A stretch of DNA of 32,000 bases, from the NCBI RefSeq assembly GCF_029232205.1, contig NZ_CP107255.1, forward strand, positions 930,001-962,000. Reading direction: 5' to 3'. Source of the DNA: Candidatus Saccharimonadota bacterium. GTDB lineage: Archaea > Nanohalarchaeota > Nanosalinia > Nanosalinales > Nanosalinaceae. This document shows, one piece after another, positions 9,432-25,743 of this stretch. Made by a program: the position numbers and the translations under genes. Under the pieces are notes generated by a model. The model was not told the origin of the DNA. It made no database searches and worked only from the letters and a program-made list of their open reading frames with translations. The first letter of the stretch is position 1. The number at the start of each line of letters is the position of its first letter.

Positions 9432-9433
9432 GA

Positions 9434-10139: not shown

Positions 10140-10323
10140 ATCGGATACCTGAGATTATTGTTATTGATTTTATGAGAGAGGTGTTTGTTGCATTACCTCC
10201 GAAATCAACGAATCTGCCCGCGTAATTATTTGTAAGAACTCCGAGAACTGCGATTAGAATGATTACAAGCATGAATGCCATTACTATTGATAGACTGATT
10301 TCGAGGCCTTTCCGCGTTGACAC
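10123..10323 (-). CDS. small prepilin-like protein (66 aa, GTG start)
   Basis: The N-terminus is (GTG)STRKG-LEISLSIVMAFMLVIILIAVLG. An A/T box is centred about 27 nt upstream. The GTG start lowers confidence. Confidence 0.6.
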   Translation of the reverse strand: MSTRKGLEISLSIVMAFMLVIILIAVLGVLTNNYAGRFVDFGGNATNTSLIKSITIISGIRYARSN

Positions 10324-10355
10324 ATGGTTATTTTGTGAGAGCCTGTTAAAATAAT

Positions 10356-10493
10356 CTAAGGGGTTGGATAGGTTACGTTTCCTGCGAAGTTGCCTGCCAT
10401 TGAGTCAAACCACCCTGAGAAGCCCATGAATATGACTGAAACTATCATGACTACAAGTACGAGCATTGCTACTGTCTTTACTGATACTTCCAT
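10356..10493 (-). CDS. 45-aa single-helix membrane or pilin-like peptide, absent from the supplied ORF track
   Basis: My hand translation is MEVSVKTVAMLVLVVMIVSVIFMGFSGWFDSMAGNFAGNVTYPTP. GGTGA (10498-10502) sits 4 nt upstream of the ATG. The ORF fills the gap between two pilin-like genes. Confidence 0.55.
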   Translation of the reverse strand: MEVSVKTVAMLVLVVMIVSVIFMGFSGWFDSMAGNFAGNVTYPTP

Positions 10494-10502
10494 GTTGTCA
10501 CC

Positions 10503-12498: not shown

Positions 12499-14670
12499 TT
12501 AGCCTGCCACCTGTGTAACGGATCCTACCATGCCTCCAAATAGCATTCCTACGATTATAAGAGTCATCGTATAGAAGAACATTCCCGAGATCATTATTTT
12601 TCCTATGAAGAGGTTCTTGTATGTAGGATCCTCTCCCTTCTTGATCTTCGTGAAGAAACTTCCCAGTATGTAAAGAAGCTGGATTAGATATACTCCTACT
12701 ACAAACTGCAGTAGCTCTGGAGGAATAGCTGAATCGAAACCAGATATTACTCCCCCAAGGCCTGCTGAGGCTCCCGGCTGGTTTCCGATCTCGGATTCTG
12801 TTACCGATTTTGAAAGAGTTGTCATGGCCGTAATGATTGTCTGAGACATGCCTACTGCAACCCCTGAAACTACTGGTGCCAGCAAGTATGCCAGCATCTG
12901 TATAGTTGTTGTAGTATCTTCCATCAGGTCGTTAAGCTGCTCCTGAGTCTTGTGAATATTCTTCAAGTATTTTGAAATTGTAAGCATTGCTGTAGAGGCC
13001 ATATTGGTTCCTTTTCTGGAGGATTCGATGATGGCCTTCATTACTGTTCTTATCATCTGACTTGGGAACTGTCTCAGTGCGCCGTAACGGTCATCCATTA
13101 TGGATTGTTCAAAGGTCATGCCCATGTCTTTGACGTTTTCTGAGGCCTTTCCAAACAGATTAGATATCTCAAGTTCTGAAGTAGCCTCTGCAGCTTCCTG
13201 TAGTGCAATTTCTACTGGTGTTCCCCCTGAAATCTTGTTTCCTAGTTCGAATAGTGCGTTTGGGAACTGGTCTTCTATTTTGGAGAGGTTTTTTTCAGCT
13301 TCTCTTCGTTCAAGATTTCCAAGCGTTTTTACGGCCCCTATTCCTACTCCGAGGCCGAAAATTATGGACACGCTTCTCATAAGCATCGGTAGTGGATCTA
13401 GTGCTCCTCCAGACTGTAGGTATATTGAGGGAACCTGACTCACGCTGAAGTCTCCTGCAGGGTAGAGAAGTAGTAGGCCTTCTCCAGCTCCTAGTGTAGA
13501 TAGGTATCCTACTACGCCATATGTGGCGAAGAAGAAGAATATTATTATTCCTACAGGCCATACTGGCGCTCTTATTGTCTTTCCTAGTACATCAAAGGTG
13601 TATTTTCCTCTTTCTGGCAGTGTTGAGTCATCTACCGGTTTGGTTGCTACTGTTGGCGGCCTTGAGCTGAGCACTCTTTTCATGAACCAGTAGAGGAATG
13701 TTGGCAGGAGCACGTTGAAGAGTAGGAAAAGGTGCATAGGTGTGATGGCGTCTCCCATGAATACGGAGATAAGCGGGAGCATGATCATACCAAGTACCGG
13801 AAGCATGGCTCCCATCGCGTTCAGGATCATGACAGGAGTCTCCAAGTTCTGCGCATAGTGTTTCATTTTCTCCTGTGTTCCGTCCAGAATGTTGTCGATC
13901 GAGTCCTGAAGCATAGATTCTCTTCTCTGTGGATCAGGCTGATTCATCGCAGAACGAAGAAGATTCAGCGATTCGAGGAAGTCATCGTTGTAGTCCTTCC
14001 ATCTTCTTGTGTAATTTTCAAGCGCACCATCAATCTTGTTGTACTTCCCTATCTCCAGATTCCATAGTACTGATTTCAGATCGTCCGAGATCGGGCCTTC
14101 CAGGTTAAGTGCTGCGAAACGAACTGCTCCCTCCAGATTAGGAGAGCTTCTCATGTATACTACCATGTACAGAATTGCAAGAATCATTTCTCCACTGCTT
14201 TCTATTAACTTGGACTGCGCTGCGTACTTGGGCTTGTAGTATGTATAGGCTCCCGCTATCATCGGAGCAGTCATCATTATCATCATGATCGATATAGGGA
14301 TGAGGCCTCCCAGAACCAGAGTGTTAATCATGAAAAGCATCATCCAGGCCATGAAAGAAAGCAGGAAGACCCCTACTGTTGCAGACATAACCATTCCTGG
14401 CGTTATATCCCATCCAAGAAGATTGATAGGTGGCGTCAGTTTTTTGTGAGTCTGCTCTCCGGCCTTCATGTTAAATACGTTTGCCATTTCATAGCAGAGC
14501 TTCTCATAACTATTTCTCTCCTGTGATCTCTCTTCATCTTCCTTGTAGTCCTTGTAAGAACGCGAATATCCTTGGCCTCCATCTTGATTGTTGTATGGAG
14601 GCATACTTACGTCTCTATCTAGATCATCTAGTATTTCATTTATCTTGTCCTGTTTTTCGTTCTTATCCAA
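12499..14670 (-). CDS. FlaJ/TadC/PilC-family polytopic platform protein of a type IV filament system
   Basis: The 723-aa product has an acidic cytoplasmic N-terminus, then alternating clusters of TM helices and soluble T2SS-F-like helical domains (ILYMVVYMRSSPNLEGAVRFAA..., IALQEAAEATSELEISNLF...). It lies immediately downstream of the secretion ATPase. Confidence 0.88.
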   Translation of the reverse strand: MDKNEKQDKINEILDDLDRDVSMPPYNNQDGGQGYSRSYKDYKEDEERSQERNSYEKLCYEMANVFNMKAGEQTHKKLTPPINLLGWDITPGMVMSATVGVFLLSFMAWMMLFMINTLVLGGLIPISIMMIMMTAPMIAGAYTYYKPKYAAQSKLIESSGEMILAILYMVVYMRSSPNLEGAVRFAALNLEGPISDDLKSVLWNLEIGKYNKIDGALENYTRRWKDYNDDFLESLNLLRSAMNQPDPQRRESMLQDSIDNILDGTQEKMKHYAQNLETPVMILNAMGAMLPVLGMIMLPLISVFMGDAITPMHLFLLFNVLLPTFLYWFMKRVLSSRPPTVATKPVDDSTLPERGKYTFDVLGKTIRAPVWPVGIIIFFFFATYGVVGYLSTLGAGEGLLLLYPAGDFSVSQVPSIYLQSGGALDPLPMLMRSVSIIFGLGVGIGAVKTLGNLERREAEKNLSKIEDQFPNALFELGNKISGGTPVEIALQEAAEATSELEISNLFGKASENVKDMGMTFEQSIMDDRYGALRQFPSQMIRTVMKAIIESSRKGTNMASTAMLTISKYLKNIHKTQEQLNDLMEDTTTTIQMLAYLLAPVVSGVAVGMSQTIITAMTTLSKSVTESEIGNQPGASAGLGGVISGFDSAIPPELLQFVVGVYLIQLLYILGSFFTKIKKGEDPTYKNLFIGKIMISGMFFYTMTLIIVGMLFGGMVGSVTQVAG

Positions 14671-14673
14671 GCA

Positions 14674-16935
14674 TTACACCTGCTGTTGCAGCCATTCATC
14701 CCATCTTGCAAATATCCTATCATTATCTAGATCCCCGTATTCTTCTCTAACGCGCTGTGAAAGTATGTGATAGCGCTGATTGGCTTTTACAACAAAGTCG
14801 GCCTCCAGAAGTTGTTTATCGCTTTCCTGATTGGCCTCTACAAGTCTCTCCTTTATCTGCTGTCTTAGCTTGATATTGTCCCAGACCGCTTCCCAGTCGT
14901 TCTTCCATTCCTTGATATTTTCAGCGATCCTGTTCAGAATCAGTGACTCGCCGTTCATCAGTTCATCGGTGGGAACTAGCTCATCTTTATTGCTGTCATA
15001 TCTCATCAGATCGACAAACGCGTTTTCATCTTGAGGATCCTCCTGCCAGTCCTTCCTCACCTCGGTAATGCCAGTAACCCTACGGTATGTGTCCATACCG
15101 TCGGGACTTCTGATCTTATTCACACTGACAATAATGTCTGTAGCCTTGAAAGAAGTTCTTGGAACATTAAGATCGTTTACAACACGGTCAAAAACAGAGT
15201 ATGCATCTTCGCCGTGAATCGTACCTCCTACGAAGTTTGCAACAGCTCCAACACGCATGGCCTCGTAAAGAGCCTTTGCCTCATCAGAACGGACCTCTCC
15301 AACAACAAGAGCAGAGTCTCCTAGCCGTAGTGAGGTTCTAATTGCCTCATCCGCTGCCATCTCATTCTCAACCTGCGTAATAGCAGATCTGGACTTCATA
15401 CGCTCGACATTGTAACCTAGATCCTTCATCTGAGGAATAGGCAGCTCAAGCGTATCCTCAACAGTCACAATCCTGTGACTCTTCATAATCTCAAGCATAG
15501 AGGCCCCAAGAATCGAGGACTTACCAGCGCCACGAGTACCTGCAAACAGAACCGAGCGATTCCCGTCAACAAGGAAGGATATCAGGGCCGCGCCAAGAGA
15601 GTTTATCATACCATTATTCATGAAAAGAGGTAGTGTCCAAGCCTTTGAACGGTGTCTTCTGAACGCGAACGCAAGGCCTTCTGGCGAAAGATTTTCCTGT
15701 ATAACTGCTACACGGGCTCGGCCTCCAGGAACCTCAGCCTCAGTATCCAGTACCGGATTGGCCTCGTCAAGAGGTCTTCCTGATCTGATTCTGAATCTTG
15801 TGGCCCATGACTCTGCCTCGTCCTTTGTAGGTATTAAGTTTGTCTCACATTCCCCGTACTCCTGATGGGAGATATACATCGGAGAATCTCCTATCGGAGA
15901 GTTAATGTAGACGTCCTGGATTTTTGGATCAGCTAATAGAAGCTCCAAGACACCAAGGCCTGAAGTATACCGGTTAAGAATTGAACCTAGCTCTTCTAGC
16001 TCTTCTAGAGATAAATCAACACCCATCTGATTTGCTATATCTCTGAGCATGTCCTTCCCGATATTCTGGAATACCTCATTCATTCTCTCAGGCCTGGCAA
16101 ATTCTCCTTCTTCAGGTTGGTGAGAGGCCATGTATCTTCTTGCTGCATCCAGCAATGTGTATTTCTGCTCTGACAGATTGAATTCCGGAGGATTGACATG
16201 GTATACAGGCCTTGTCTGATCGGGCACCCTATATATAGAAACTTCTATGTTGTCTCTGACCTTGTACCGGTCTACTTCCTCTCCTCTTTCTGGAGGAAGA
16301 CTCATGTACTTTGTAAGCATGAAGTTAGGCCTTACAAGAGGGTGGAAGAACTCTCTGTAGATTTCTCGGTCTCCTACATGGTGGCCTGTAAGATACTGTT
16401 GTGCATCCTGTATTAGCTGGCATTCCTCTATTCTGTCAATTACAGGATTGAGAACATCTTGTATAAAGTATTTCAGACATCTCTGCTGCTCAGGATATGC
16501 ATTTTGCCTGTCCTGATTTAGATGTCTTTTCTTACGAGTAAGCTGGACATAGGCCCCGATAGGATCTTTTCTCATCTGGTCGAAAACACTTTCCTGTACG
16601 TCAGGAAGATGCTGACTGTATACTGTATCGCATTTATCTGTCTTTACGTTCTGAGAAAGGTGGCCCTGCGAGGATATATCCTGTATTACCTGTGAGATTT
16701 CTCTAAGGTATTTTACCTGTTGTTCATCGTATTCGTAGTCTCTCGACTCGGATAGAACTACCGATGATGCATCAGGAACTTCCTGCAAGATGTTTATTAC
16801 TCGGGACATGACCTGAGGATAGTCCTCGAGGCTTGCACCGTAGATTGAGCCCAGCGTGTTTACCTCTACAGTGCCTGATTCTTCATCATAGTCGTATTCG
16901 AAAACATCTTTGTCTGTTACAGTCATACCCAGCAT
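14674..16935 (-). CDS. type II/IV secretion-family ATPase (FlaI/GspE/VirB11-like), 753 aa
   Basis: Motifs are Walker A FAGTRGAGKSS, Walker B-like ALVVGEVR, the Asp-box region VTVEDTLEL, and the His-box GGTIHGE. Long N- and C-terminal extensions flank the core. Confidence 0.92.
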   Translation of the reverse strand: MLGMTVTDKDVFEYDYDEESGTVEVNTLGSIYGASLEDYPQVMSRVINILQEVPDASSVVLSESRDYEYDEQQVKYLREISQVIQDISSQGHLSQNVKTDKCDTVYSQHLPDVQESVFDQMRKDPIGAYVQLTRKKRHLNQDRQNAYPEQQRCLKYFIQDVLNPVIDRIEECQLIQDAQQYLTGHHVGDREIYREFFHPLVRPNFMLTKYMSLPPERGEEVDRYKVRDNIEVSIYRVPDQTRPVYHVNPPEFNLSEQKYTLLDAARRYMASHQPEEGEFARPERMNEVFQNIGKDMLRDIANQMGVDLSLEELEELGSILNRYTSGLGVLELLLADPKIQDVYINSPIGDSPMYISHQEYGECETNLIPTKDEAESWATRFRIRSGRPLDEANPVLDTEAEVPGGRARVAVIQENLSPEGLAFAFRRHRSKAWTLPLFMNNGMINSLGAALISFLVDGNRSVLFAGTRGAGKSSILGASMLEIMKSHRIVTVEDTLELPIPQMKDLGYNVERMKSRSAITQVENEMAADEAIRTSLRLGDSALVVGEVRSDEAKALYEAMRVGAVANFVGGTIHGEDAYSVFDRVVNDLNVPRTSFKATDIIVSVNKIRSPDGMDTYRRVTGITEVRKDWQEDPQDENAFVDLMRYDSNKDELVPTDELMNGESLILNRIAENIKEWKNDWEAVWDNIKLRQQIKERLVEANQESDKQLLEADFVVKANQRYHILSQRVREEYGDLDNDRIFARWDEWLQQQV

Positions 16936-17442: not shown

Positions 17443-18372
17443 ATGGAATTCAAATTATTCGATAGACTAAAAGATGAAGATGGACAGTCCGACTCCAACT
17501 CCGGTAACGGAGGTATGGGAGGAGGCTTTGGCGGCTCAAATTCCGGTAATTCTCAGGCAAGTTCTTTTGGAGGTAATGGAGTAGAGAGAAGAGTTTCAGA
17601 CATGTTTAATCAGGGCTACTCTGAGAAAGAGATCAAGGACGAACTTCAGGGCCAGTTTTCTCAGACAGAAATTGAGAGAGCAATCAATAATGCAGTGAAA
17701 AGCTCTGCAACTGGAAATAATAGTAGTAGCGGGTCCAGTGGTGGGCCTCAGCCGATGACACCGTATAAAAGCGATAGCGGTGAGGAAGCGATAAGCCCTA
17801 TGGACGAAGGTTTCGATGGTGGAGATGATAATCAGATGAATCAGGATAACGGTCAACAGCAAGGTATGCAGCAGAATCAAGGTTTTAACCAGCAAAATAA
17901 TACTCAACAACAGCAGCAGGTACAGCAGCCTCAACAGCAACAGCAGGGAGGCCAGCAAGTTAATCCTTCTCAGGGTTCTGTTAATCCCGAGATTGAGGAG
18001 TTGATTGAAACAATTGTTTCAGAAAACTTCCAGATGGTTGAACAGAGATTTGACGACATATTTGAGGAAATCGATATTCTTGCAGACAAGGTAGATGAAC
18101 TGGAAGACCGAGTTGAGGAACTGGAGATCAGAGATGATGAGGATCAGGAACAGTTCCTCCAGAAAGTAGATGAGGTAGAGGACCACATCGATTCCTATGA
18201 GTCAAGGATTGGAGGTCTGGAGAAGGCCTTCCAGCAGGTCTTGCCATCGCTTGTTGACAATGTCCGCGATCTCACAAGTCTTGTCCAGGAGATTAAACAG
18301 GAGAGAGGTATTGAGACAGATACCAACGTCTCTCAACAAGACATGGATAAAATGGACATTGACAACTGGTAA
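17443..18372 (+). CDS. G/S/N-rich plus Q-rich low-complexity protein with an acidic C-terminal coiled coil, function unknown
   Basis: The 309-aa product has a G/S/N-rich N-terminus and a short helical motif FNQGYSEKEIKDELQGQFSQTEIERAINNA. A Q/N tract covers aa 129-177, followed by a coiled coil (KVDELEDRVEELE ...). Confidence 0.8.
   Translation: MEFKLFDRLKDEDGQSDSNSGNGGMGGGFGGSNSGNSQASSFGGNGVERRVSDMFNQGYSEKEIKDELQGQFSQTEIERAINNAVKSSATGNNSSSGSSGGPQPMTPYKSDSGEEAISPMDEGFDGGDDNQMNQDNGQQQGMQQNQGFNQQNNTQQQQQVQQPQQQQQGGQQVNPSQGSVNPEIEELIETIVSENFQMVEQRFDDIFEEIDILADKVDELEDRVEELEIRDDEDQEQFLQKVDEVEDHIDSYESRIGGLEKAFQQVLPSLVDNVRDLTSLVQEIKQERGIETDTNVSQQDMDKMDIDNW
17827..17973 (+). repeat. Q/N-rich low-complexity coding tract
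   Basis: It encodes DNQMNQDNGQQQGMQQNQGFNQQNNTQQQQQVQQPQQQQQGGQQ using mixed CAA/CAG codons. Confidence 0.85.
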
Positions 18373-18418: not shown

Positions 18419-18919
18419 TTAGAAGTCCTGTGTTGTAAACAGGACAATTATTATGACAAATATCAGCGACAGTATTGGCATTATCACTTCATCAAACAGA
18501 TTCTGGCCTTCTCCAATCAGTGATGCTGCGCCACCGCCGTAACCTACCAGGATGCTGACGAATGCTACAATACCGATCACTCCTGCAAATATCCATGGTA
18601 GCGACCAGGCATCGCCCATTTCATTTACATCGTAGCCTGCTACTGCGAACAGTATAAGTAGGGACAGCAAGCCGAATATTCCGAATGCTATTGCTGATGC
18701 AAAGTGTGTCCACATTCCTGCTGGTGCAAAAGCGGTGACACCAATAACGGAAAGGAAAGCAAATGAGAGTGCGACTACTCCGTTGACCTGTGTCTCTTCG
18801 CTGATTACTTCGTATTTATTGAGCAGGCCGTAACTGACCGAGAATATGAGGAGCCAGGGTAGGAATAGGTTGAATCCCATTTCCTGCATTGTCAGTATGA
18901 CTTGCTCAATTGCTCCCAT
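18419..18919 (-). CDS. polytopic membrane protein (166 aa), paralog of 18927-19496
   Basis: The product has 4-5 hydrophobic segments. It shares an N-terminal pattern with its neighbour (FNLFLPWLLIFSVSYGLL / FFTLLLPFLVTYVVLLFG and VVALSFAF / VVALAGAF). Confidence 0.8.
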   Translation of the reverse strand: MGAIEQVILTMQEMGFNLFLPWLLIFSVSYGLLNKYEVISEETQVNGVVALSFAFLSVIGVTAFAPAGMWTHFASAIAFGIFGLLSLLILFAVAGYDVNEMGDAWSLPWIFAGVIGIVAFVSILVGYGGGAASLIGEGQNLFDEVIMPILSLIFVIIIVLFTTQDF

Positions 18920-18926
18920 TATTCAG

Positions 18927-19496
18927 TCACCCATCTTCTCCAAGCAGTGTTTCCATTGCTGACATTACAGAGGAGTCATCATCTCCGCTACTACTGTCAT
19001 CGGAAGGTCTTGTCCAGTACATCACAATTCCTAGCGGAACCAACCATACTAATGGCGAGGACAGGGCCTCATTCACCATGCTGCTGACAGTGGTATCCGG
19101 TAGTGGAACTATCGCTTCCAAGCCTCCTGTTCGGGCAAATACTATTACTCCTGCGAACAGCACCACTATCGCTATTGGCTTGGATTTCTGAAGTACGTCT
19201 CCCCATCCTGCAATTCCAAGTATTGCACCCAGGCCGATAACACCCATCATACCGATGGCTATTCTGGCCCAGTACTCTGTGAAGAATGACTGGTATCCTG
19301 GATTGTTCGCTAGGAAGAATGCCAGGAAGAATGCTCCTGCTAGTGCAACGACAGGAGGCACGTTTGAATCATCTAAGTGCCCTATCTGTCTTACTCCGAA
19401 AAGTAGTACTACATAAGTTACCAGAAATGGAAGTAGGAGTGTGAAAAAGTCCACTCCTTCAAGAGTTGTAATTAAGGAAGCAAATCCTGTGGCCAC
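18927..19496 (-). CDS. polytopic membrane protein (189 aa) with an acidic S/D tail, paralog of 18419-18919
   Basis: Multiple hydrophobic segments are followed by the C-terminal tail PSDDSSSGDDDSSVMSAMETLLGEDG. A 7-nt gap separates it from the downstream gene. Confidence 0.8.
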   Translation of the reverse strand: MATGFASLITTLEGVDFFTLLLPFLVTYVVLLFGVRQIGHLDDSNVPPVVALAGAFFLAFFLANNPGYQSFFTEYWARIAIGMMGVIGLGAILGIAGWGDVLQKSKPIAIVVLFAGVIVFARTGGLEAIVPLPDTTVSSMVNEALSSPLVWLVPLGIVMYWTRPSDDSSSGDDDSSVMSAMETLLGEDG

Positions 19497-19500
19497 TCAA

Positions 19501-19761
19501 TTATTCACCTTCTTGTTCTCGAAGATATTCTTCGATGTTGTGGTTGAGCATCCATAGCTCTCTTCCTATGATCATCAGGCCCAGCATGATTATCCATGGA
19601 GAGATAATGTCTCCAAAGGAGCTCATTGTCAGGCCCTGTGTTCTCTGAAGAGTCCATACTGCTACTACTATGGCTCCAAATGATAGAAACGCTATCAGTA
19701 GTTCGTCTAGAATGTTTTCGATTTCGTATACAAATTCGTGGAATTTAGTATCTCGATTCAT
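19501..19761 (-). CDS. small two-TM membrane protein (86 aa)
   Basis: Two hydrophobic segments are present (LLIAFLSFGAIVVAVWTL and ISPWIIMLGLMII). Gaps to both neighbours are 3-4 nt. Confidence 0.7.
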   Translation of the reverse strand: MNRDTKFHEFVYEIENILDELLIAFLSFGAIVVAVWTLQRTQGLTMSSFGDIISPWIIMLGLMIIGRELWMLNHNIEEYLREQEGE

Positions 19762-19764
19762 CGT

Positions 19765-19902
19765 TTACCAGTTGCCTCCTCCGCTTCTCTTTTTGTTTCT
19801 TTTCATGAATAGACGTGTCAAGAATCCTGCTACGAAGCCTACCGCCGCTACTTCCGGATAGGCCATCAAATTATTCATTACCGCTTCTGCTGTCAGAGCC
19901 AT
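19765..19902 (-). CDS. 45-aa single-TM peptide with a basic tail, absent from the supplied ORF track
   Basis: My hand translation is MALTAEAVMNNLMAYPEVAAVGFVAGFLTRLFMKRNKKRSGGGNW. GAGGT (19913-19917) sits upstream. It is the first gene of a 4-gene string. Confidence 0.5.
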   Translation of the reverse strand: MALTAEAVMNNLMAYPEVAAVGFVAGFLTRLFMKRNKKRSGGGNW

Positions 19903-20031: not shown

Positions 20032-20571
20032 CTATAGGTTCTTGTGAACGTGGGTTTCCACTTTGTCCATGGATCCTTTCATCTGGTTGAGGTACCTTCC
20101 CTCGATTGTCTTCAGAATCTGGTCCATTTCTGACTCTTTGTTCATCTCTTTTTCTTCCCATTCCATTTCCTGCTCGACTTCCTGTCTTGCCTGATCAATC
20201 TTTTCGTGGACATCCTGTAGAACCTGGTGTTGTCTCTTAACGTATTCAGGATCTCTTAGCCAGCCAAGCGCTTCTTCATCTGGAACATTTTGCTGTAGGT
20301 ACTGGTTTGCAGCTGCTATTCCCTGATTATTGAGAATCTGCTCAAACTGTTCAAAGTTAATCTTGTTAATAACGGCTACAAACTGCAGTAGACCCGATTG
20401 CTCGGCCTCCTGCATCGCTTCTTTCAGCTTGTTGATTACATCATCATCGAGCTCGATCTCTCTTTTTCTGAGCTCTTCATCTTGATGTATATCATCCATT
20501 ACCTCCTGTACTCTATCATGTAGTTCTTGAAAATCAAAACTCTCATTTTCTGAGAAGTAGTCGTCTGCCAT
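20032..20571 (-). CDS. acidic soluble protein (179 aa), stand-alone copy of the C-terminal module of the 746-aa neighbour
   Basis: Its sequence LKEAMQEAEQSGLLQFVAVINKINFEQFEQILNNQGIAAANQYL...WLRDPEYVKRQHQ...MEWEEKEM aligns colinearly with ELKEAMQVIEQSQLLKFVAAINKIDFDRFDQILNEEGIATANQYL...WLSNPEFIKSQHK...MEWEDGEM. Confidence 0.82.
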   Translation of the reverse strand: MADDYFSENESFDFQELHDRVQEVMDDIHQDEELRKREIELDDDVINKLKEAMQEAEQSGLLQFVAVINKINFEQFEQILNNQGIAAANQYLQQNVPDEEALGWLRDPEYVKRQHQVLQDVHEKIDQARQEVEQEMEWEEKEMNKESEMDQILKTIEGRYLNQMKGSMDKVETHVHKNL

Positions 20572-20608
20572 GGTCAGTTATAGGTCATCTACATTAAAAA
20601 AACTTGTC

Positions 20609-22849
20609 TCAGCGGCTGGTGTCAATCATAGTATCCTCTAACCTCCCCATCGCCGATCTTATTTGAGGCAGTTTCTGATTCTCCAAACTGTCAAGAACAT
20701 CAAGAATCTGGGCCTCCTGCTCCATTTCACCATCCTCCCACTCCATGTTCTGCTCTAAATCCTGCCTTGCCTCATCTAAACGATTGTGCAGCTTCTCCAG
20801 CTGCTTGTGCTGGCTCTTGATAAACTCTGGATTGGAGAGCCAATCCTTAATTTCCGGATCACTTAATTTGCTGTCAAGATACTGGTTTGCAGTAGCAATA
20901 CCTTCTTCGTTAAGAATCTGATCAAATCTATCAAAGTCTATCTTGTTAATAGCTGCTACAAACTTTAGTAATTGGCTCTGCTCGATTACCTGCATGGCCT
21001 CCTTAAGTTCCTCTAATATTTGTTCATCTACACTTAACTCTTGCTTTCTGGTCTGCTCATCCTTTTCTAGAGCTTCAATTAGATTGCCAAATGTAGTCTC
21101 AATTTCTGCGTCGTGCTGATATTCCTGACCTGCATTATGCCTCATGTGGCTCTTATCCAACGTCCAGTTCCGCTCCAAAATATCAATTATTGCACGGAAA
21201 TCTGTCTCATCTATTCTCCTTGCATCGTGCTCCTTGAAGTAGTCAACAATTTCCTGCGATGCATCTACAATCGAATCTCTTGGAACTGACTGAATATGAT
21301 TGTAGAAGGCCATAAGCATTGAACCATTGTTTCCTACAGCTCTTTGATGATCTCCATTCAGAGTTCTAAGAAGCATCTCCTTGGCAGAATCTCTTAGATC
21401 TGAATTTCTAACGACCTTCTGGAATATCTCCCAGTTATCTCCTTCTAGATCAGGTTCATCTGAACCTCCGCCACCCTGCTCTACGTTCACTATAATATTT
21501 GTTATCTGTACAAGAGCGTCCTGATTTAGAGGACCCTGGAAGCTCAAAAACACGCTTACTATTTCTTCTACTGCAGGCCCAACCGCTGAGGAAGGGAGAT
21601 TTTCAATAACAGAGATTAACTGTACAAATACAGAAACATCAATCTGAACATTACTGCCAGTTTGAATTACCACTGTGCCATCATTTACTTCGATGTTAAG
21701 CTCTAGAAGATTGATGAACTGTGAGAAGGCCTGCTGGTTAACATTCACATTATTTTGCTGGACGTACTGGCCTAACTGATTTACAAGAACGTTTGATATA
21801 TCGTAATACTGCTGATTAACAACTTTTTCGATCTCTACATTGTTGATCTGGACAATTTTTGGATTATTCTCAACTTTCTGGAAGTACTGCTCTAGCCTCT
21901 GAATCAGGGTTTCATCTAGAGGCCCTCCATAATTGACCACTATCTTCATCATCTGATTGACTACCTCCATATCAAATTCTTCATCCCCTTCAGACATGAC
22001 CTTGACCATCATCTGCATCAAGCCACTAAATTGCTGCTGCTGAATGGTTACATCCTCGGCATTAGGCGCATTCACAACTATTCCTCCATTACCTGGACCG
22101 AATCTTCCCTGTAGTAAGGCCATGAACTGCATCATACCCGGAGTCATTGCCATACCCATCTGCTGCTGTTGCTGCTGCATTGCAGCTGCTACTTGCTGAG
22201 CCATCTGTGGATCTAGATCGATGTCAACATTCTGATAAGGTGAGCCAGGAGGGCCTCCACCAGAATCCCCAGAGTCATCGCTGCTATCGCTTCCATCAGG
22301 GACATTAACATCTATAGAATCAGGCGCGTTGACATCTATAGAATCTGGAGCATTAACATCTATAGAATCAGGAATATCACCACCACCTATATCAATATCT
22401 GGAAGGCCTGGAAGATTGACTCCAAGAAGATGTCTTAGTACGAAGAGCAGGGCCAGTAATAACAGTAGTAGGGCGACTCCTGGCCCGTAGTTTCCGTGCC
22501 TCATTACTGTTACTACTGCTACTGCTAGGGCCATTAGCTGTGCTGCTTTCTGCCCCATCTCGGATAGATCATCGCCGCCGTTATTGTCCTCGAAGTTGTT
22601 TTCAGCTCTCTTCAGAACTTTGCTGAATATGAACCACATTAGGCCATATACTCCGATTAAAGGTATGATTACGAATACGAGGAAGTCCTGGCCATTGTTG
22701 ATGTCGCTGACTGTTAGAGAATCAATGAAGTTTAGTGGTTCATTGTAGAATGCCTGTGAGGGGCCTCCTCCAGCGATCTGTGCAGCAGCTGGTGCGGAAA
22801 TAACAGCTATGAGTAAAAGTAGAAGTGCTGCTGCATACGATTTGCGCAT
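20609..22849 (-). CDS. 746-aa modular membrane protein, function unknown
   Basis: The order of parts is a signal peptide (MRKSYAAALLLLLIAVISAPAAAQ), TM helices, a DSIDVNAP x3 repeat, a QQQQQQ tract, an N/Q/V-rich middle region and an acidic C-terminal module. Confidence 0.85.
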   Translation of the reverse strand: MRKSYAAALLLLLIAVISAPAAAQIAGGGPSQAFYNEPLNFIDSLTVSDINNGQDFLVFVIIPLIGVYGLMWFIFSKVLKRAENNFEDNNGGDDLSEMGQKAAQLMALAVAVVTVMRHGNYGPGVALLLLLLALLFVLRHLLGVNLPGLPDIDIGGGDIPDSIDVNAPDSIDVNAPDSIDVNVPDGSDSSDDSGDSGGGPPGSPYQNVDIDLDPQMAQQVAAAMQQQQQQMGMAMTPGMMQFMALLQGRFGPGNGGIVVNAPNAEDVTIQQQQFSGLMQMMVKVMSEGDEEFDMEVVNQMMKIVVNYGGPLDETLIQRLEQYFQKVENNPKIVQINNVEIEKVVNQQYYDISNVLVNQLGQYVQQNNVNVNQQAFSQFINLLELNIEVNDGTVVIQTGSNVQIDVSVFVQLISVIENLPSSAVGPAVEEIVSVFLSFQGPLNQDALVQITNIIVNVEQGGGGSDEPDLEGDNWEIFQKVVRNSDLRDSAKEMLLRTLNGDHQRAVGNNGSMLMAFYNHIQSVPRDSIVDASQEIVDYFKEHDARRIDETDFRAIIDILERNWTLDKSHMRHNAGQEYQHDAEIETTFGNLIEALEKDEQTRKQELSVDEQILEELKEAMQVIEQSQLLKFVAAINKIDFDRFDQILNEEGIATANQYLDSKLSDPEIKDWLSNPEFIKSQHKQLEKLHNRLDEARQDLEQNMEWEDGEMEQEAQILDVLDSLENQKLPQIRSAMGRLEDTMIDTSR
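22297..22373 (-). repeat. in-frame 24-bp tandem repeat, 3 copies (PDSIDVNA)
   Basis: The core acatctatagaatc recurs at 22308, 22332 and 22356 with exact 24-nt spacing. Copies differ only at a few positions. Confidence 0.9.
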
Positions 22850-22893
22850 AGACTAATTTGAGTTTAGCTTCTTTAATAGCATTAGGGCCGTAA

Positions 22894-23313
22894 TTACATC
22901 ATTTTGTAGATTACGTAGATGAATGCACAGGCGAATGCGACTAATATTGCAGGCCCCATTACTTCTATTAGCTGAGAGATTCTTCTCCACATCGGGGAGA
23001 CTATAATCATTGCAGGTATAGATACCGCGAGAATGGTTGAGTAGCGGCCTATCTCAGAATCTGTCATGTCATCGTTGGAGTTCAATGCAAACTTCATCAG
23101 GTTGAAGAGAGTGAACTGCATGATTGCATAGATTAGAACAAATGGAAAAATTATCTTCAGCACCAGCTCTCTCTGAGAGTCATACTCTGGAGCCGAAAAG
23201 TAATCGGCACCATCGTAGTCGTTCAGGTCATAGGCCTGCGAAGTAGCTGCCCCAGTTGATATTACCAGAAGCAATAGAACTGAAAGAATTTTTCTAGAAG
23301 TCAAAATCATCAT
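22894..23313 (-). CDS. small membrane protein (~139 aa), stand-alone copy of the N-terminal module of the 746-aa neighbour
   Basis: The start is set at MMILTSRKILSVLLLLVISTGAATSQA (signal-peptide-like). The segment IIFPFVLIYAIMQFTLFNLMKFALNSNDDMTDSEIG parallels IIPLIGVYGLMWFIFSKVLKRAENN..GGDDLSEMG in 20609-22849. Confidence 0.7.
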   Translation of the reverse strand: MMILTSRKILSVLLLLVISTGAATSQAYDLNDYDGADYFSAPEYDSQRELVLKIIFPFVLIYAIMQFTLFNLMKFALNSNDDMTDSEIGRYSTILAVSIPAMIIVSPMWRRISQLIEVMGPAILVAFACAFIYVIYKMM

Positions 23314-23602
23314 CGCCGCCTCCGCCGAAGTCGTCGTCTCCTCCACCGAAGTCACCGCCACCGCTACCTCCACCACCAGAGGAGCTAGAGCCTTCTCTAA
23401 TTTTCTGAATATAAACCGGAATCATTTCATCAACCAGAAACCCTACCGCAAGGCCCATTCCCGCAAGAAGAGCTATCTGAGCGTTCAATTCTGTTAGACC
23501 CGTCATTGAGGTAACATCATCAAGAAGAATGTTGACGGCAAAGTATGATGCTATTGCTGAGGCCGGGAAGGCCGGATACTTCCACGGGTCTTTAATGTTC
23601 AT
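23294..23602 (-). CDS. small membrane protein (102 aa) with a G/D/F-rich C-terminal tail
   Basis: Two hydrophobic segments are followed by SSSSGGGGSGGGDFGGGDDDFGGGGDDDFDF. The 3' end overlaps the next gene by 20 nt in another frame. Confidence 0.7.
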   Translation of the reverse strand: MNIKDPWKYPAFPASAIASYFAVNILLDDVTSMTGLTELNAQIALLAGMGLAVGFLVDEMIPVYIQKIREGSSSSGGGGSGGGDFGGGDDDFGGGGDDDFDF

Positions 23603-23634: not shown

Positions 23635-23865
23635 TTAATCAAATTTTCCAAGTCTTTCAAGAGTCTCGAGAATACCCCATGCATAGATTACAGATTCCCA
23701 GGCCCTGATATAGTCCTCTTCATCAAGGAAATGCTGTGTGTCATCTCGGTAGGCCTCAACATTCTCCATCTGCTCGACACTTGAATCTCTGTCTTCAACC
23801 CTATCTTCCAGCTTTTTCAGCCACTTCTCTGTCTCTTCCTTCAGTTTTTCCTGTGTCTCGTCCAT
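23635..23865 (-). CDS. DUF357-like small helical protein (76 aa)
   Basis: MDETQEKLKEETEKWLKKL...AYRDDTQHFLDEEDYIRAWESVIYAWGILETLERLG matches my recollection of the DUF357 pattern (Y.DA..F...GD...A.....YA.GWLD...RLG). aattataaaag is centred 27 nt upstream of this ATG. The longer track ORF to 24066 is rejected. Confidence 0.65.
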   Translation of the reverse strand: MDETQEKLKEETEKWLKKLEDRVEDRDSSVEQMENVEAYRDDTQHFLDEEDYIRAWESVIYAWGILETLERLGKFD

Positions 23866-23941
23866 GCTGAGAACTTGTACAGTGATAATTATAAAAGAGT
23901 TATTTCTTTTTACTATCAATAGGTAACAAGAGGTATTATTT

Positions 23942-24679
23942 ATGACAGCATTCGGACTACTTCCAGGGCCTTTGGACGGCGTTAAATTGACCGTTGACAG
24001 GCTCATGGAAGACGGTGAAGAAGAGATAGAGACCATTGACCTTTCTGGCCTCGAAGGATTCGACATTGATGAATACAGACAGCGAGATGACGTAGAGGTA
24101 GAAAGAACTATTAGAGACGATGGCAGAGAAGCTTACAGAGTAGTGCCTCATTCCGAAGAGGCAAGAGCGCTTTTGGACCCATCTAACTATAGTGAGGAAT
24201 CGGATTCAGAGATTTCGGAACCCTCTTCAGATCTTGGACCTCAAAACCCTTCAGAACCTAATAACGGAGGTGACAATAATATGGTAGATAGTCCAGACGA
24301 GCTAGTAGACCTATCTGACGACGTAGATGCAGCACAGCAGGACATGTACGACAAGCTTGGCGGATTCAGAGATTATCTGGAAGAGAAATTCCAGGAAGTA
24401 GACGATGAGATCGAAGTAACTCTAAGAGAAGCTGCTGAAGTACTCGACTACATGGACGACACAATGGGCGCACAGCTCAACACACAGCTTCACGACTACG
24501 AGACAGTTAGCGATTACGTCGAAGCAGTTAGTTCTGACGTAGACGAACACGTCGACGAAGTAGTTGCACATCTTGACGAAGACTTTAGAGACACCGATAA
24601 GTACGCAGAAGTCAGGAGAAACATGGAAGCAATGGATCAGAGAAGAAACCGCTTCAGAGACGAAATGGGTCTTAATTAA
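23942..24679 (+). CDS. acidic protein (245 aa), function unknown; C-terminal helical domain paralogous to the N-terminus of 24742-25743
   Basis: GAGGT sits 7 nt upstream of the ATG. Blocks shared with the next gene are LVD..S....A.AQ.DMYD.L and DY.TV.D..E. Confidence 0.75.
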   Translation: MTAFGLLPGPLDGVKLTVDRLMEDGEEEIETIDLSGLEGFDIDEYRQRDDVEVERTIRDDGREAYRVVPHSEEARALLDPSNYSEESDSEISEPSSDLGPQNPSEPNNGGDNNMVDSPDELVDLSDDVDAAQQDMYDKLGGFRDYLEEKFQEVDDEIEVTLREAAEVLDYMDDTMGAQLNTQLHDYETVSDYVEAVSSDVDEHVDEVVAHLDEDFRDTDKYAEVRRNMEAMDQRRNRFRDEMGLN

Positions 24680-24741: not shown

Positions 24742-25743
24742 ATGAGTGCGAATGGATTTGACCTGGTAGATAGAAGCAGTAGAACTGCTGAAGCGCAGGA
24801 TGATATGTATGATGCGCTGGAAGATCTTGGTAATACTCTAGACAGAGGTCATGATCTCCTTGATGACGTAGTTGAAGGTCAGAGAGAGACCGAAGAGACA
24901 TTTGCACAATTTCTAGAAGAAGTAAGAAACGATTACAGAACAGTTGAAGATTTTGCAGAACAGTATAACGATAGACAGCAGGATCTGAATAGTAGAATCG
25001 AAAACCTCGATGTAGGAAATAATAACACAACATTTAACCTATACGCCTTCCCAGGCGCCACGACGACTCAGCCTATGGGATGGGGCAGCATGTACCAACA
25101 GCAAGGCCTATTTGGTCAGCAACAAGGTTTCGGACCTGGCAGTTTTTGGAGTCCTAACCAGCAACAACAGCAGGCATCTGGAGGAGGTCAACAACAGCAA
25201 CAGCAAGGGTATGGCGGCCAGCAGCAACAACAGCAACAAGGATTTGGAAGACAGCAACAGCAGCAGGGCCAGACCTGGGATCAGGTTTTCTTTGGATCAG
25301 ATGATGAGAGTATTCTGGATGTAAACGATACTACAGAAGATGAAAGTGAAGAAATTCCAGTAGACTCTCCGGAAGATAATACCTACGAAGAGCCAGAAGA
25401 CGAATCTTACGACGAACCCGGGGATGAGAGTTATGAAGCTACTGACAGCGAACCAGTTACATTCATTGATGGAACAGAAGATCCTGTAGAAGACACCTAC
25501 GAAGAGCCAGAAGACGACGAGACCTATGACGACACTGAAGACTATGAACCAGAGCCAGATGGAAGTGTAGATATGGGAACAAACTTTGGGCCAGACATCA
25601 GTTTCGACTACGAAGCTGAAAACTCCACAGAAAATGCAACTCAAAGCTTCAGCTTTTCAGGTACAGGCTTCGAGCCATCCGGCAGCATTACAATGCAGCA
25701 ATCAGCTGGCGGGGAAACCCAGTACTTTGAGGCCTCATTCTAA
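24742..25743 (+). CDS. protein with an acidic helical N-domain, a Q/G-rich (GFG/LFG/GYG) tract and a hyper-acidic Y/E/P/D tail, function unknown
   Basis: The 333-aa product has a Q/G tract at aa 110-177 and a tail with duplicated TYEEPED. Its 3' end overlaps the dphB 3' end by 9 nt. Confidence 0.8.
   Translation: MSANGFDLVDRSSRTAEAQDDMYDALEDLGNTLDRGHDLLDDVVEGQRETEETFAQFLEEVRNDYRTVEDFAEQYNDRQQDLNSRIENLDVGNNNTTFNLYAFPGATTTQPMGWGSMYQQQGLFGQQQGFGPGSFWSPNQQQQQASGGGQQQQQQGYGGQQQQQQQGFGRQQQQQGQTWDQVFFGSDDESILDVNDTTEDESEEIPVDSPEDNTYEEPEDESYDEPGDESYEATDSEPVTFIDGTEDPVEDTYEEPEDDETYDDTEDYEPEPDGSVDMGTNFGPDISFDYEAENSTENATQSFSFSGTGFEPSGSITMQQSAGGETQYFEASF
25069..25272 (+). repeat. Q/G-rich low-complexity coding tract
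   Basis: It encodes QPMGWGSMYQQQGLFGQQQGFGPGSFWSPNQQQQQASGGGQQQQQQGYGGQQQQQQQGFGRQQQQQGQ. Confidence 0.85.

What the first reader, a model, noticed from the sequence alone, without database searches (positions are those of the whole stretch)
20032..23313. Module shuffling: a 746-aa protein flanked by stand-alone copies of its own N-terminal and C-terminal modules
Three consecutive minus-strand genes are related as follows.
- Gene 22894-23313 has a signal peptide, then a TM-acidic loop-TM unit. Its segment IIFPFVLIYAIMQFTLFNLMKFALNSNDDMTDSEIG matches the N-terminal ~130 aa of the 746-aa protein (IIPLIGVYGLMWFIFSKVLKRAENN..GGDDLSEMG).
- Gene 20032-20571 (soluble, 179 aa) aligns colinearly with the last ~170 aa of the 746-aa protein (LLQFVAVINKINFEQFEQILNNQGIAAANQYL versus LLKFVAAINKIDFDRFDQILNEEGIATANQYL, and MEWEEKEM versus MEWEDGEM).
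- Similarity is still visible at the DNA level (for example tactggtttgcag, atcttgttaata and gctacaaact occur in both).

The order is N-module alone, then N+middle+C, then C-module alone. This looks like a partial tandem duplication or a fission/fusion snapshot. It implies that the membrane module and the soluble module work together.
Basis: seen in the sequence. Interest (0 to 1): 0.65.

Follow-up and report, generated by a model that had tools for sequence, protein, structure and literature searches.

The report
Membrane protein with matched stand-alone tail copy
In a salt-loving nano-archaeon, a large uncharacterised membrane protein is followed by a separate small gene that is an old copy of its own tail, and this tail-plus-copy pair recurs and is swapped as a unit across related genomes, which makes it a moderately interesting lineage-specific variable locus and not a fresh gene fission or fusion.

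Summary
The 179-aa protein (C, 20032-20571) matches residues 582-738 of the 746-aa protein (BIG, 20609-22849) at 44% identity without gaps (E 2e-44). The DNA still matches at 69% over 245 nt, at a constant 580-nt offset. The N-terminal match is weak (22%) but holds up in shuffles and profile searches.

The "snapshot" reading does not hold.
- The window is from a Nanohaloarchaeota genome, and no Pfam or NCBIfam family matches these proteins.
- A profile search of 1.84 billion representative proteins found only 42 relatives.
- These relatives combine three modules freely: a membrane anchor (signal peptide plus 3 TM), a middle domain, and a helical C-module.
- In 15 further related loci the BIG-type gene sits, wherever its upstream flank is on the contig, directly after DUF357. 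The T2SSE/T2SSF pilus-type genes lie a few genes downstream.
- A stand-alone C directly follows BIG in the window and 11 of the 15 loci. It matches its own BIG tail (34-52% in a common alignment) better than any other locus's tail in seven of the nine distinct pairs compared.
- The small N gene is always coupled to a 90-109-aa membrane gene (g102) and usually lies downstream of BIG.
- The window's BIG is a chimera: its last third plus C form a cassette related to a distant lineage.

C is under purifying selection (dN/dS 0.10-0.17). Function is unknown. My inference is a membrane-tethered cytoplasmic scaffold whose tail binds its soluble paralog.

The parts
20032..20571 (-). C: stand-alone soluble 179-aa protein, a paralog of the BIG C-module (type A). 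No signal peptide.
   Evidence: 44% identity over 157 aa to BIG 582-738. Orthologs at 84-96% identity in short Logan contigs, with the same BIG-C-g45 order. dN/dS 0.17 against L004. AF2 model is all-helical, mean pLDDT 69.6, about 80 for residues 41-130.
20593..20602 (-). A/T-rich TATA-like box (TTTTTTTAAT) centred about 26 nt upstream of the C start codon, inside the 37-nt BIG-C spacer
   Evidence: Read from the sequence. Comparable A/T boxes (TAATAAAAAC and similar) lie upstream of C in L001-L004, L007, L009, L015 and L016; L010 has a less clear box. A separate leaderless transcript is an inference.
20612..21106 (-). BIG residues 582-746: the C-module (type A), the duplicated segment
20153..20390 (-). 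DNA-level direct repeat, copy in C. Its partner is 20733-20970 in BIG, offset 580 nt.
   Evidence: blastn 68.6% over 245 nt, E 1.6e-19.
20733..20970 (-). DNA-level direct repeat, copy in the BIG 3' end
21107..21454 (-). BIG residues 466-581: cassette-specific helical region ('Aup'). Among the sequences scanned it is shared only with P0034, and it replaces the beta-rich domain of the L001-type orthologs.
   Evidence: hAup HMM hits only the window's BIG and P0034. Identity to L001-L003 collapses here.
20032..21454 (-). Variable cassette: BIG 3' third, spacer and C gene
   Evidence: Window against L001-L003: flanking genes 67-90% identical, BIG residues 1-465 about 50-90%, BIG residues from about 475 to 746 about 0-30% per 40-column window, C 25-27%. 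BIG 481-746 is 42% identical to P0034 but 18% to L001; BIG 201-480 is 60% identical to L001 but 29% to P0034.
21455..22234 (-). BIG residues 206-465: conserved middle (MID) domain preceded by a Q/M-rich stretch
   Evidence: hMID HMM 4e-141. Detected at E <= 1e-3 in P0008, P0010-P0014 and P0016.
22235..22405 (-). BIG residues 149-205: acidic/Gly linker containing a 24-nt tandem repeat (22295-22373, 3.3 copies) that encodes PDSIDVNA repeats
   Evidence: TRF; translation.
22406..22849 (-). BIG residues 1-148: N-module (signal peptide ending AAAQ, about 30 external residues, TM1, conserved loop AExNFxxN..LSDxG, then a TM2-TM3 hairpin)
   Evidence: Alignment of 28 family members; hN HMM.
22894..23313 (-). 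N: stand-alone 139-aa membrane protein, a minimal paralog of the N-module. Its start overlaps the end of g102 by 20 nt.
23294..23602 (-). g102: 102-aa two-TM protein with a Gly/Asp tail ending DDDFDF. It is the invariable upstream partner of N.
   Evidence: The g102-N pair is adjacent or overlapping in every locus that covers the position.
23635..23868 (-). DUF357 gene, the conserved left border of the variable region
   Evidence: Pfam PF04010, E 3e-11. Same position in L001, L003, L008-L013, L015 and L016, plus an unannotated 76-aa gene there in L002.
19765..19902 (-). g45: 45-aa single-TM protein, the conserved right border of the variable region
18419..19761 (-). g86, g189 and g166: three conserved small polytopic membrane proteins (77-90% identical to L001-L003)
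12499..16935 (-). T2SSE ATPase (14674-16935) and T2SSF platform protein (12499-14670) of a type IV pilus-like system, syntenic with the cluster
   Evidence: Pfam PF00437 6.6e-15 and PF00482 1.8e-5. T2SSE lies at the same position in L001-L003, L009 and L010.

Best explanation
Shown.
- The three genes belong to a Nanohaloarchaeota-restricted, unannotated family of modular membrane proteins.
- The family occupies a fixed genomic slot: Trm5, diphthine synthase, DUF357, [variable region], g45, g86, g189, g166, two divergent coiled-coil genes, then T2SSE and T2SSF.
- BIG is an anchor module (signal peptide plus 3 TM) followed by a linker, a middle domain, and a variable C-terminal cassette ending in a helical C-module.
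- The stand-alone C gene is an old partial tandem duplicate of the C-module. It is kept intact under purifying selection.
- In most loci that have a stand-alone C, it resembles its own BIG tail more than any foreign tail. This holds across at least four mutually very divergent sequence types.
- The cassette (BIG 3' third plus C) has been exchanged between lineages. The window's BIG is a chimera of an L001-like 5' part and a P0034-like 3' part.
- In one locus (L012) BIG carries a stand-alone-type C-module and no separate C gene follows, which is consistent with the pair having collapsed back into one copy.
- N is a minimal paralog of the anchor and is always translationally coupled to g102.

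Inferred.
- All the large domains and C are cytoplasmic.
- C, made from its own TATA-like promoter, associates with the homologous C-module on BIG as a paralogous helical-bundle hetero-oligomer.
- The anchors of N/g102, BIG and X480-like proteins assemble in the membrane.
- Together they form a membrane-tethered cytoplasmic scaffold that may serve the neighbouring pilus-type machine.
For: Duplication:
- (protein and DNA similarity, 580-nt offset, saturated third codon positions).

Family and modules:
- No curated family matches.
- 42 relatives at E <= 1e-3 among 1.84e9 representative proteins, with every combination of modules.
- The only organism named for any relative is Candidatus Nanohaloarchaea.

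Synteny (15 further loci):
-.

Matched pairs:
- BLASTP identity of C to its own BIG tail: window 44%, L001 55%, L009 52%, L010 36% (E 6e-21), L015 45%, L017 43%.
- In a common alignment the own-pair value is the largest in its row of the C-versus-BIG-tail matrix for 7 of 9 loci, ties for L002, and is exceeded for L003.
- NJ bootstrap: L010 pair 100, type A clade 100, L007 pair plus P0021 97.

Chimera:
-.

Collapse of the pair:
- L012's BIG carries a C-module of the L015 stand-alone type (bootstrap 100) and no C gene follows it.

Selection and expression:
- dN/dS 0.17 and 0.10 for C, 0.07-0.15 for N.
- A/T boxes upstream of the start codons of C, BIG and g102 in most loci.

Topology:
- K/R residues cluster at the N-terminus and in the TM1-TM2 loop of the anchor family.
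- Lys/Arg follow the last TM in most alternative anchor types (P0025, P0026, P0027, P0034, P0043; read).
- C has no signal peptide.
Against: - No experiment and no complex prediction supports C binding to the BIG tail.
- Four loci (L008, L011, L012, L013) lack a stand-alone C, so it is dispensable or replaceable.
- Topology rests only on the positive-inside rule in an acidic proteome. Some relatives carry apparently beta-rich segments and Thr/Pro-rich linkers after the anchor (one weak Big_13 Ig-like match in P0012, E 1.2e-4, below the Pfam cut-off), which would be more usual outside the cell.
- The link to the pilus-type machine is synteny only, across two oppositely oriented genes.
- Support for separate stand-alone and fused clades within type B is weak (31-48%), so recurrent duplication and old gene conversion cannot be told apart.
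Confidence: 0.65

Rival explanations
1. The stand-alone C is a regulator, not a structural partner. As a soluble mimic of the BIG tail it would compete for whatever ligand the tail binds (decoy or dominant-negative), tuning the activity of the membrane protein.
For: C has its own TATA-like box and so could be expressed independently. It is absent from four loci, so it is accessory. It must resemble its own BIG tail, as a competitor would.
Against: No ligand is known. Pairs are only 34-52% identical in the common alignment, which is low for a mimic of one binding surface. Nothing distinguishes this from hetero-oligomerisation.
Confidence: 0.15
2. The cassette is a polymorphic specificity or conflict determinant: a matched membrane-tethered plus soluble pair kept in several ancient allelic types and exchanged between lineages under diversifying selection. 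It would work like self/non-self or toxin-immunity cassettes, perhaps related to host or virus interaction of these symbionts.
For: There is a sharp recombination junction inside BIG, with the downstream gene co-varying. At least four mutually very divergent types sit in backbones that are otherwise close: the window, L007 and L017 against L001. The C-modules evolve fastest in the locus: dN 0.15-0.27 against 0.02-0.05 for g166 and N in the same genome pair, L001-L003.
Against: No toxin, nuclease or other effector domain was found. The downstream gene is a paralog of the tail, not an unrelated immunity protein. The domains are predicted to be cytoplasmic. dN/dS between close alleles is well below 1. 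No relatives were found on viral contigs.
Confidence: 0.12
3. One reading: a recent fission/fusion or duplication snapshot, with N and C being the two halves split from (or about to fuse into) BIG.
For: The gene order N, BIG, C in the window, and the residual DNA similarity.
Against: Third codon positions are saturated (38% identity). The same arrangement is found in the window and 11 of 15 further loci, with pairs 34-52% identical in the common alignment. N lies downstream of BIG in eight loci and is always coupled to g102. Both small genes are under purifying selection.
Confidence: 0.04
4. The similarity is a by-product of composition (acidic coiled coil, hydrophobic TM segments) and the small ORFs are not functional genes.
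For: The proteome is strongly acidic and the C-module is helical and Glu/Gln-rich. Profile matches to solved structures are only generic coiled coils.
Against: The ungapped 157-aa alignment at E 2e-44 uses composition adjustment. DNA identity lies at a fixed offset. Shuffle tests and negative controls hold for N. dN/dS is 0.10-0.17. The orthologs are syntenic.
Confidence: 0.02

Closest known systems
Polymorphic toxin / contact-dependent inhibition cassettes (CdiA-CT/CdiI, Rhs-CT/RhsI). Comparison from my own knowledge of these systems.
   Same: A large protein with a conserved N-terminal body and a sharply delimited, replaceable C-terminal region. The small gene immediately downstream co-varies with that region. 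Cassettes are exchanged between lineages.
   Different: Here the downstream gene is a paralog of the C-terminal module itself, not an unrelated immunity protein. No toxin domain was found. The cassette is predicted to be cytoplasmic, not delivered to a target. There is no conserved demarcation motif, only a Gly/acidic linker.
Cytoplasmic or membrane scaffold proteins of type IV filament machines (archaellum ArlX / ArlC-D-E; bacterial PilN/PilO paralog pair; the halobacterial coiled-coil arCOG07564 noted in PMC4858521)
   Same: Encoded beside a T2SSE/T2SSF pair. Membrane-anchored or soluble helical/coiled-coil proteins. PilN/PilO are paralogs that heterodimerise, which is the mode proposed here for C and the BIG tail.
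   Different: BIG, C and N show no sequence match to FlaC_arch or any pilus-accessory family. Only the neighbour at 17443-18372 has sub-threshold FlaC_arch/DUF7310 hits. The cluster is separated from T2SSE by two oppositely oriented genes. PilN/PilO core domains are periplasmic.
Hypervariable gene module of Thermococcales centred on a large Ig-domain protein (PMC8416519; abstract seen)
   Same: An archaeal, lineage-specific locus in which a large upstream protein is followed by variable combinations of downstream genes. That module was interpreted as conflict or self/non-self related.
   Different: Different phylum and no sequence relationship was tested. The window's BIG matches no Ig family, and one relative, P0012, gives only a weak sub-threshold Big_13 match. 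The matched tail/stand-alone paralog pair is not a feature I know from that module.
Ordinary partial tandem gene duplication giving a stand-alone copy of a terminal domain
   Same: Adjacent, same-strand, colinear, ungapped similarity with residual DNA identity at a fixed offset.
   Different: The duplicate is ancient, selected, present in many genomes, and co-varies with its parent across divergent cassette types.

Membership tests
Any curated protein family (Pfam-A, NCBIfam) | Score above the curated cut-off for BIG, C, N or g102 | tested here: not met
   All hits are below cut-off. The best are DUF4197 at 18.1 bits against a 24.9 cut-off, and TIGR02530 at 23.2 against 83.2. Ten relatives give no hit above cut-off; the only match listed is Big_13 in P0012, 22.9 bits against a 27 cut-off.
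Partial tandem duplication (C from the BIG 3' end) | Adjacent, same strand, colinear protein similarity beyond chance | tested here: met
   44% over 157 aa, no gaps, E 2e-44.
Partial tandem duplication (C from the BIG 3' end) | Nucleotide similarity at a constant offset | tested here: met
   68.6% over 245 nt, offset 580 nt.
Partial tandem duplication (C from the BIG 3' end) | Recent origin ('snapshot') | tested here: not met
   Third-position identity is 38%. The arrangement is shared by the window and 11 of 15 further loci.
Polymorphic toxin-immunity cassette | Conserved body with a sharp junction to a variable C-terminus, and a co-varying downstream gene | tested here: met
   The junction lies near BIG residue 465-480. 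Flanks are 67-90% identical; the BIG tail and C are about 18-27%.
Polymorphic toxin-immunity cassette | Recognisable toxin or effector domain in the variable C-terminus | tested here: not met
   No Pfam, NCBIfam or PDB match. The model is a helical bundle with no Foldseek hit below E 0.4.
Polymorphic toxin-immunity cassette | Downstream immunity protein unrelated in sequence to the toxin | tested here: not met
   The downstream protein is a 34-55% identical paralog of the tail.
Polymorphic toxin-immunity cassette | Export of the C-terminal domain | tested here: inconclusive
   The positive-inside pattern predicts a cytoplasmic C-terminus. There is no experimental topology.
Archaellum / type IV pilus accessory proteins (ArlC/D/E, ArlX) | Sequence match to FlaC_arch or related models | tested here: not met
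   None for BIG, C, N or g102. Only the neighbour at 17443-18372 gives FlaC_arch at 20.6 bits against a 27.8 cut-off.
Archaellum / type IV pilus accessory proteins (ArlC/D/E, ArlX) | Encoded next to the T2SSE (ArlI/PilB-like) and T2SSF (ArlJ/TadC-like) genes | tested here: met
   Note that two divergently oriented genes intervene.
Archaellum / type IV pilus accessory proteins (ArlC/D/E, ArlX) | Physical or functional interaction with the ATPase or platform | not testable with these tools
   Requires experiments or complex prediction.
N-module anchor family (BIG, X480-like, N) | Signal peptide, TM1, conserved AExNF..LSDxG loop, TM2-TM3 hairpin | tested here: met
   Met for BIG and 27 relatives. 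The N-alone proteins carry a degenerate form (ALNSNDDMTDSEIG) and are hit by the hN HMM at 1e-9 to 8e-8.

The most novel reading that the evidence does not exclude
The BIG tail and its soluble paralog may form a cognate, type-specific pair: only matching types would assemble. The pair would be maintained as several ancient 'alleles' that move between Nanohaloarchaeota lineages by recombination. That would make this slot, next to the pilus-type machine, a specificity or recognition locus for these obligate symbionts, for example governing compatibility of a cell-contact apparatus. It would be built on a principle (a tethered domain plus a free copy of itself) not described for known polymorphic systems.
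Probability: 0.15. Interest if true: 0.7.

Novelty: new variant of a known kind. Interest (0 to 1): 0.45.

Why it matters
Nanohaloarchaeota are tiny symbionts whose genomes are mostly unannotated, and how they build their cell-contact and pilus-type structures is unknown. This work does three things.
- It defines a phylum-restricted family of modular membrane proteins at a fixed locus beside the pilus-type genes.
- It shows that the locus is a hot spot of domain shuffling and cassette exchange.
- It identifies a recurrent design, a membrane-tethered module plus a free paralog that co-varies with it. That design gives a concrete, testable hypothesis of cognate binding for otherwise dark genes.

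If the pairing turns out to be type-specific, it would be an unusual way of encoding specificity. If not, it remains a clean natural example of long-lived partial tandem duplication, apparent collapse and recombination at domain linkers.

Tried and rejected
- Pfam and NCBIfam scans of BIG, C, N, g102 and neighbours gave nothing above cut-off. Ten relatives also gave nothing above cut-off.
- The AF2 model of BIG from a 4-sequence alignment had pLDDT 37.5 and was not used for fold search.
- The AF2 model of C (pLDDT 69.6) searched with Foldseek against the PDB gave best E 0.47, only generic helical bundles such as ferritins, ClyA and designed proteins.
- A profile of 23 C-modules against PDB sequences matched only designed coiled coils, best E 0.0011.
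- The word-indexed homolog searches found only 4, 3 and 11 proteins.
- The scans of genome contigs and metagenome contigs each returned one locus.
- The viral-contig scan found none. The C-module alignment was too diverse to scan with.
- Relationship of g189, g166, g86 and g102 to the N-module was rejected: hhalign E 0.05-0.5, shuffle z 0-3, no HMM hit.
- Recent gene conversion within L001-L003 was rejected: there is no within-genome excess of C-to-tail identity in that group.
- A hybrid origin of the P0034 tail (front like the window's BIG tail, end like the window's C) is only suggestive. Identities are 18 versus 12 in the first two windows and 9 versus 19 in the last two, and bootstrap does not resolve it.
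- The sigma-70 promoter and terminator scan is not informative for an archaeon: 11 sites found against 11.3 expected.
- Literature searches found no description of this family.

Full report
**1. Observation**

All three genes lie on the minus strand: N 22894-23313 (139 aa), BIG 20609-22849 (746 aa) and C 20032-20571 (179 aa).

- C aligns with BIG residues 582-738 at 44% identity and 73% positives without a gap, E 2e-44 with composition adjustment.
- At DNA level the two segments are 68.6% identical over 245 nt (20153-20390 against 20733-20970).
- Third codon positions are only 38% identical, so the duplication is old.
- The N-to-BIG match is weak (22% over 89 aa, E 1e-5) but real.
  - Shuffles give z = 10 for whole-sequence shuffling and z about 4 for shuffling that preserves the TM/loop layout.
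  - The result is reproduced in three orthologous genomes.
  - Four other membrane proteins of the locus give z = 0-3.
  - An HMM built without any N protein detects all four N proteins at 1e-9 to 8e-8 and none of the controls.
  - hhalign gives E 3e-5.

**2. Setting**

The window is archaeal. Its proteome is very acidic and its GC content is about 44%. It carries diphthine synthase, a Trm5-type methyltransferase and DUF357 (plus the ortholog annotations).

The nearest relatives of BIG come from Candidatus Nanohaloarchaea.

Downstream on the same strand lie four small conserved membrane genes: g45 19765-19902, g86, g189 and g166. Next come two oppositely oriented coiled-coil genes, then a T2SSE ATPase, a T2SSF platform protein and a run of genes whose products start with RKG-type pilin-like signal sequences.

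**3. The family**

Neither Pfam nor NCBIfam recognises BIG, C, N or g102.

A profile of four BIG orthologs, searched against 1.84 billion representative proteins, found only 42 proteins at E <= 1e-3. Mapping module HMMs onto them shows free recombination of units:

| Module | Contexts in which it occurs |
|---|---|
| Anchor (N-module) | Heads BIG-type proteins; heads many 470-730-aa acidic coiled-coil proteins ('X480-like'); stands alone |
| C-module | Stands alone (160-180 aa); ends BIG-type proteins; sits on a short one- or two-TM anchor (P0026, P0027, P0033, P0043) |
| MID and beta-rich domains | Optional |

The window's type A C-module and the commoner type B are distantly homologous:
- hhalign E 2e-4.
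- Cross-hits at 6e-4 and 2e-3.

**4. Synteny**

Fifteen further loci were read: L001-L005, L007-L013 and L015-L017.

- Wherever the upstream flank is on the contig, the BIG-type gene lies directly after DUF357, or after DUF357-g102-N in the window's sub-lineage.
- The block g45-g86-g189-g166 follows. Where the contig reaches far enough, T2SSE follows that.
- The g102-N pair is present and adjacent or overlapping in every locus that covers it. This includes genes the callers missed in L002 and L012.
- Only the window's sub-lineage (window, L001-L003, L007) has g102-N upstream of BIG. In L008-L013, L015 and L016 it is downstream.
- A stand-alone C directly follows BIG in the window and in L001-L005, L007, L009, L010 and L015-L017.
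- It is absent in L008, L011, L012 and L013.
- In L013, L015 and L016 the BIG-position gene is only a two-TM anchor plus a C-module. This points to anchor plus C-module as the core of that position.

**5. Matched pairs and cassette exchange**

Each stand-alone C matches the tail of its own BIG. BLASTP identities are:

| Locus | Identity of C to own BIG tail |
|---|---|
| Window | 44% |
| L001 | 55% |
| L009 | 52% |
| L010 | 36% (E 6e-21; no BLASTP hit at E <= 1e-3 to the window's or L001's C) |
| L015 | 45% |
| L017 | 43% |

In a common alignment of nine pairs, own-pair identities are 34-52%.
- The own-pair value is the largest in its row of the C-versus-tail matrix for 7 of 9 loci. It ties for L002 and is exceeded for L003.
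- For the window, L007, L010 and L017 it also exceeds identity to any other locus's stand-alone C: 41 against 22 or less, 50 against 44, 34 against 21, and 36 against 29.
- NJ bootstrap supports the L010 pair (100), the type A clade (100) and the L007 pair plus P0021 (97).

The window's flanking genes are 67-90% identical to L001-L003, and BIG residues 1-465 are about 50-90% identical. From about residue 475 to the end, identity per 40-column window falls to 0-30%, and C is 25-27% identical.

The pattern is reciprocal:

| BIG region | Identity to L001 | Identity to P0034 |
|---|---|---|
| 201-480 | 60% | 29% |
| 481-746 | 18% | 42% |

P0034 is the BIG of a distant locus whose N protein is only 23% identical to the window's. 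The window's BIG is therefore a chimera, and the unit exchanged is the BIG 3' third plus C (20032-21454).

L012's BIG carries a C-module of the L015 stand-alone type (bootstrap 100) and has no C gene. This is the outcome expected if the tandem pair recombined into one copy.

In L011 the anchor of an X480-like gene is 76% identical to that of the neighbouring BIG, which indicates a recent intralocus copy of the N-module.

Whether the pair-wise clustering reflects recurrent duplication or old gene conversion cannot be decided. Within L001-L003 there is no sign of ongoing conversion.

**6. Selection and expression signals**

- dN/dS for C is 0.17 (window against L004) and 0.10 (L001 against L003). 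For N it is 0.07-0.15.
- C-modules are the fastest-evolving parts. For L001 against L003, dN is 0.15 (C) and 0.27 (BIG tail) against 0.02 for g166.
- A TATA-like A/T box lies about 26 nt upstream of the C start codon (20593-20602). Similar boxes precede C, BIG and g102 in most loci.
- Separate leaderless transcripts are my inference from what is generally known of archaeal promoters.

**7. Structure and topology**

- The AF2 model of C is all-helical: mean pLDDT 69.6, about 80 for residues 41-130.
- It has no significant structural neighbour; the best Foldseek hit is E 0.47.
- It has no significant sequence neighbour among solved structures; the best hit, a designed coiled coil, is at E 0.0011.
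- The BIG model is unusable.
- In an alignment of 28 anchors, Lys/Arg cluster at the extreme N-terminus and in the conserved TM1-TM2 loop. In the sequences, the TM2-TM3 turn is short and mostly uncharged, and Lys/Arg often follow TM3.
- Most alternative anchors also have Lys/Arg right after their last TM (sequences).
- Together with the lack of a signal peptide on C, this predicts that MID, the cassette and C are all cytoplasmic. This is an inference.

**8. Explanation and rivals**

Best-supported account: an old, selected partial tandem duplicate of the tail of a modular membrane protein, sitting in a phylum-specific variable slot, with the tail and its copy inherited and exchanged together.

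The mechanism I commit to, at roughly one-in-three confidence for this step, has two parts.
- C binds the homologous C-module on BIG as a paralogous helical hetero-oligomer.
- The anchors of BIG, N/g102 and X480-like proteins assemble in the membrane. The result is a membrane-tethered cytoplasmic scaffold, possibly for the adjacent pilus-type machine.

Rivals:
- C as a decoy regulator.
- A polymorphic specificity or conflict cassette.
- Compositional artefact or non-functional ORFs, also contradicted.

**9. Comparison with known systems**

- The locus resembles polymorphic toxin cassettes in architecture: a sharp junction and a co-varying downstream gene. It fails three defining features: no toxin domain, a homologous rather than unrelated partner, and no evidence of export.
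- It resembles pilus and archaellum scaffolds in position and in being helical, but has no sequence membership.
- It is a textbook partial tandem duplication in form, but not a recent one.
- A hypervariable archaeal module is known from Thermococcales (PMC8416519), but I have no evidence of relationship.

**10. Verdict**

The family is uncharacterised and restricted to Nanohaloarchaeota as far as sampled. The matched tail/free-copy pairing across divergent cassette types is the noteworthy part.

I rate interest as moderate (0.45). The novelty rating is a new variant of a known kind.

Noticed in passing
window 5684-12116 (-): A run of eight genes downstream of T2SSF. At least six of their products begin with an RKG- or HKG-type motif followed by a hydrophobic stretch (for example MKRKGLSQVLWLIIAAAV and MKRKGVSGAMILSLVGLMV). 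By my knowledge of archaeal prepilins this looks like class III (prepilin) signal peptides. None matches a Pfam family.
   Followed up: partly
L003 15567-18457: The T2SSE ATPase ortholog in this locus is called as a 1250-aa product with Intein_splicing and LAGLIDADG_3 hits, so it carries an intein. The window's copy (753 aa) and those of L001 and L002 do not.
   Followed up: no
window 22295-22373: A 24-nt tandem repeat (3.3 copies, 83% matches) encodes PDSIDVNA repeats in the linker after the BIG anchor. L001 and P0010 have similar repeats, but L002 and L003 have a PQG-rich linker instead, so this linker is itself variable.
   Followed up: partly
L009 5809-6804, L010 12452-13522, L011 13948-15015, L012 12158-13240, L013 4217-5278: A 331-360-aa gene lies between the X480-like (or N) gene and g45 in five loci. 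Its product has RimK (ATP-grasp) hits on record for L009, L012 and L013. It is absent from the window and from L001-L003. g102 ends in an acidic DFDF-type tail, but any link to the ligase is pure speculation.
   Followed up: no
L011 10682-12271 versus 8001-9923: The anchor module of an X480-like gene is 76% identical over 143 aa to the anchor of the BIG gene two genes upstream. A second X480-like gene in the same locus is only 41% identical. This indicates a recent intralocus copy or conversion of the N-module.
   Followed up: partly
window 23635-24066 (-) and 23942-24679 (+): The mechanical 143-aa ORF is over-extended. Only its last 77 codons (23635-23868) match DUF357 and the 75-91-aa orthologs. 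The upstream part overlaps a 245-aa acidic gene on the opposite strand.
   Followed up: partly
window 17443-18372 (+) and 24742-25743 (+): Two proteins have long Gln/Gly-rich low-complexity cores. The first ends in a coiled coil with sub-threshold FlaC_arch and DUF7310 hits, and it is conserved (about 300-320 aa) between g166 and T2SSE in L001-L003, L009-L011 and L013.
   Followed up: partly
L012 6434-7049: A VapB/PIN toxin-antitoxin pair is inserted between Trm5 and diphthine synthase in this locus only.
   Followed up: no
window 1911-3644 (-): A 577-aa extremely acidic, Glu-rich protein. It is followed at 3714-4223 by a 169-aa Glu-rich protein of similar character. Function unknown.
   Followed up: no
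L002 11028-12485, L003 11080-12522, L007 4230-5672, L017 2510-3976: An X480-like gene (anchor plus acidic coiled coil) sits between C and g45 in close relatives but is missing from the window and L001. This is a presence/absence polymorphism right at the cassette border. Its C-terminal part shows weak similarity to the C-module (39% over 62 aa, E 0.002).
   Followed up: partly
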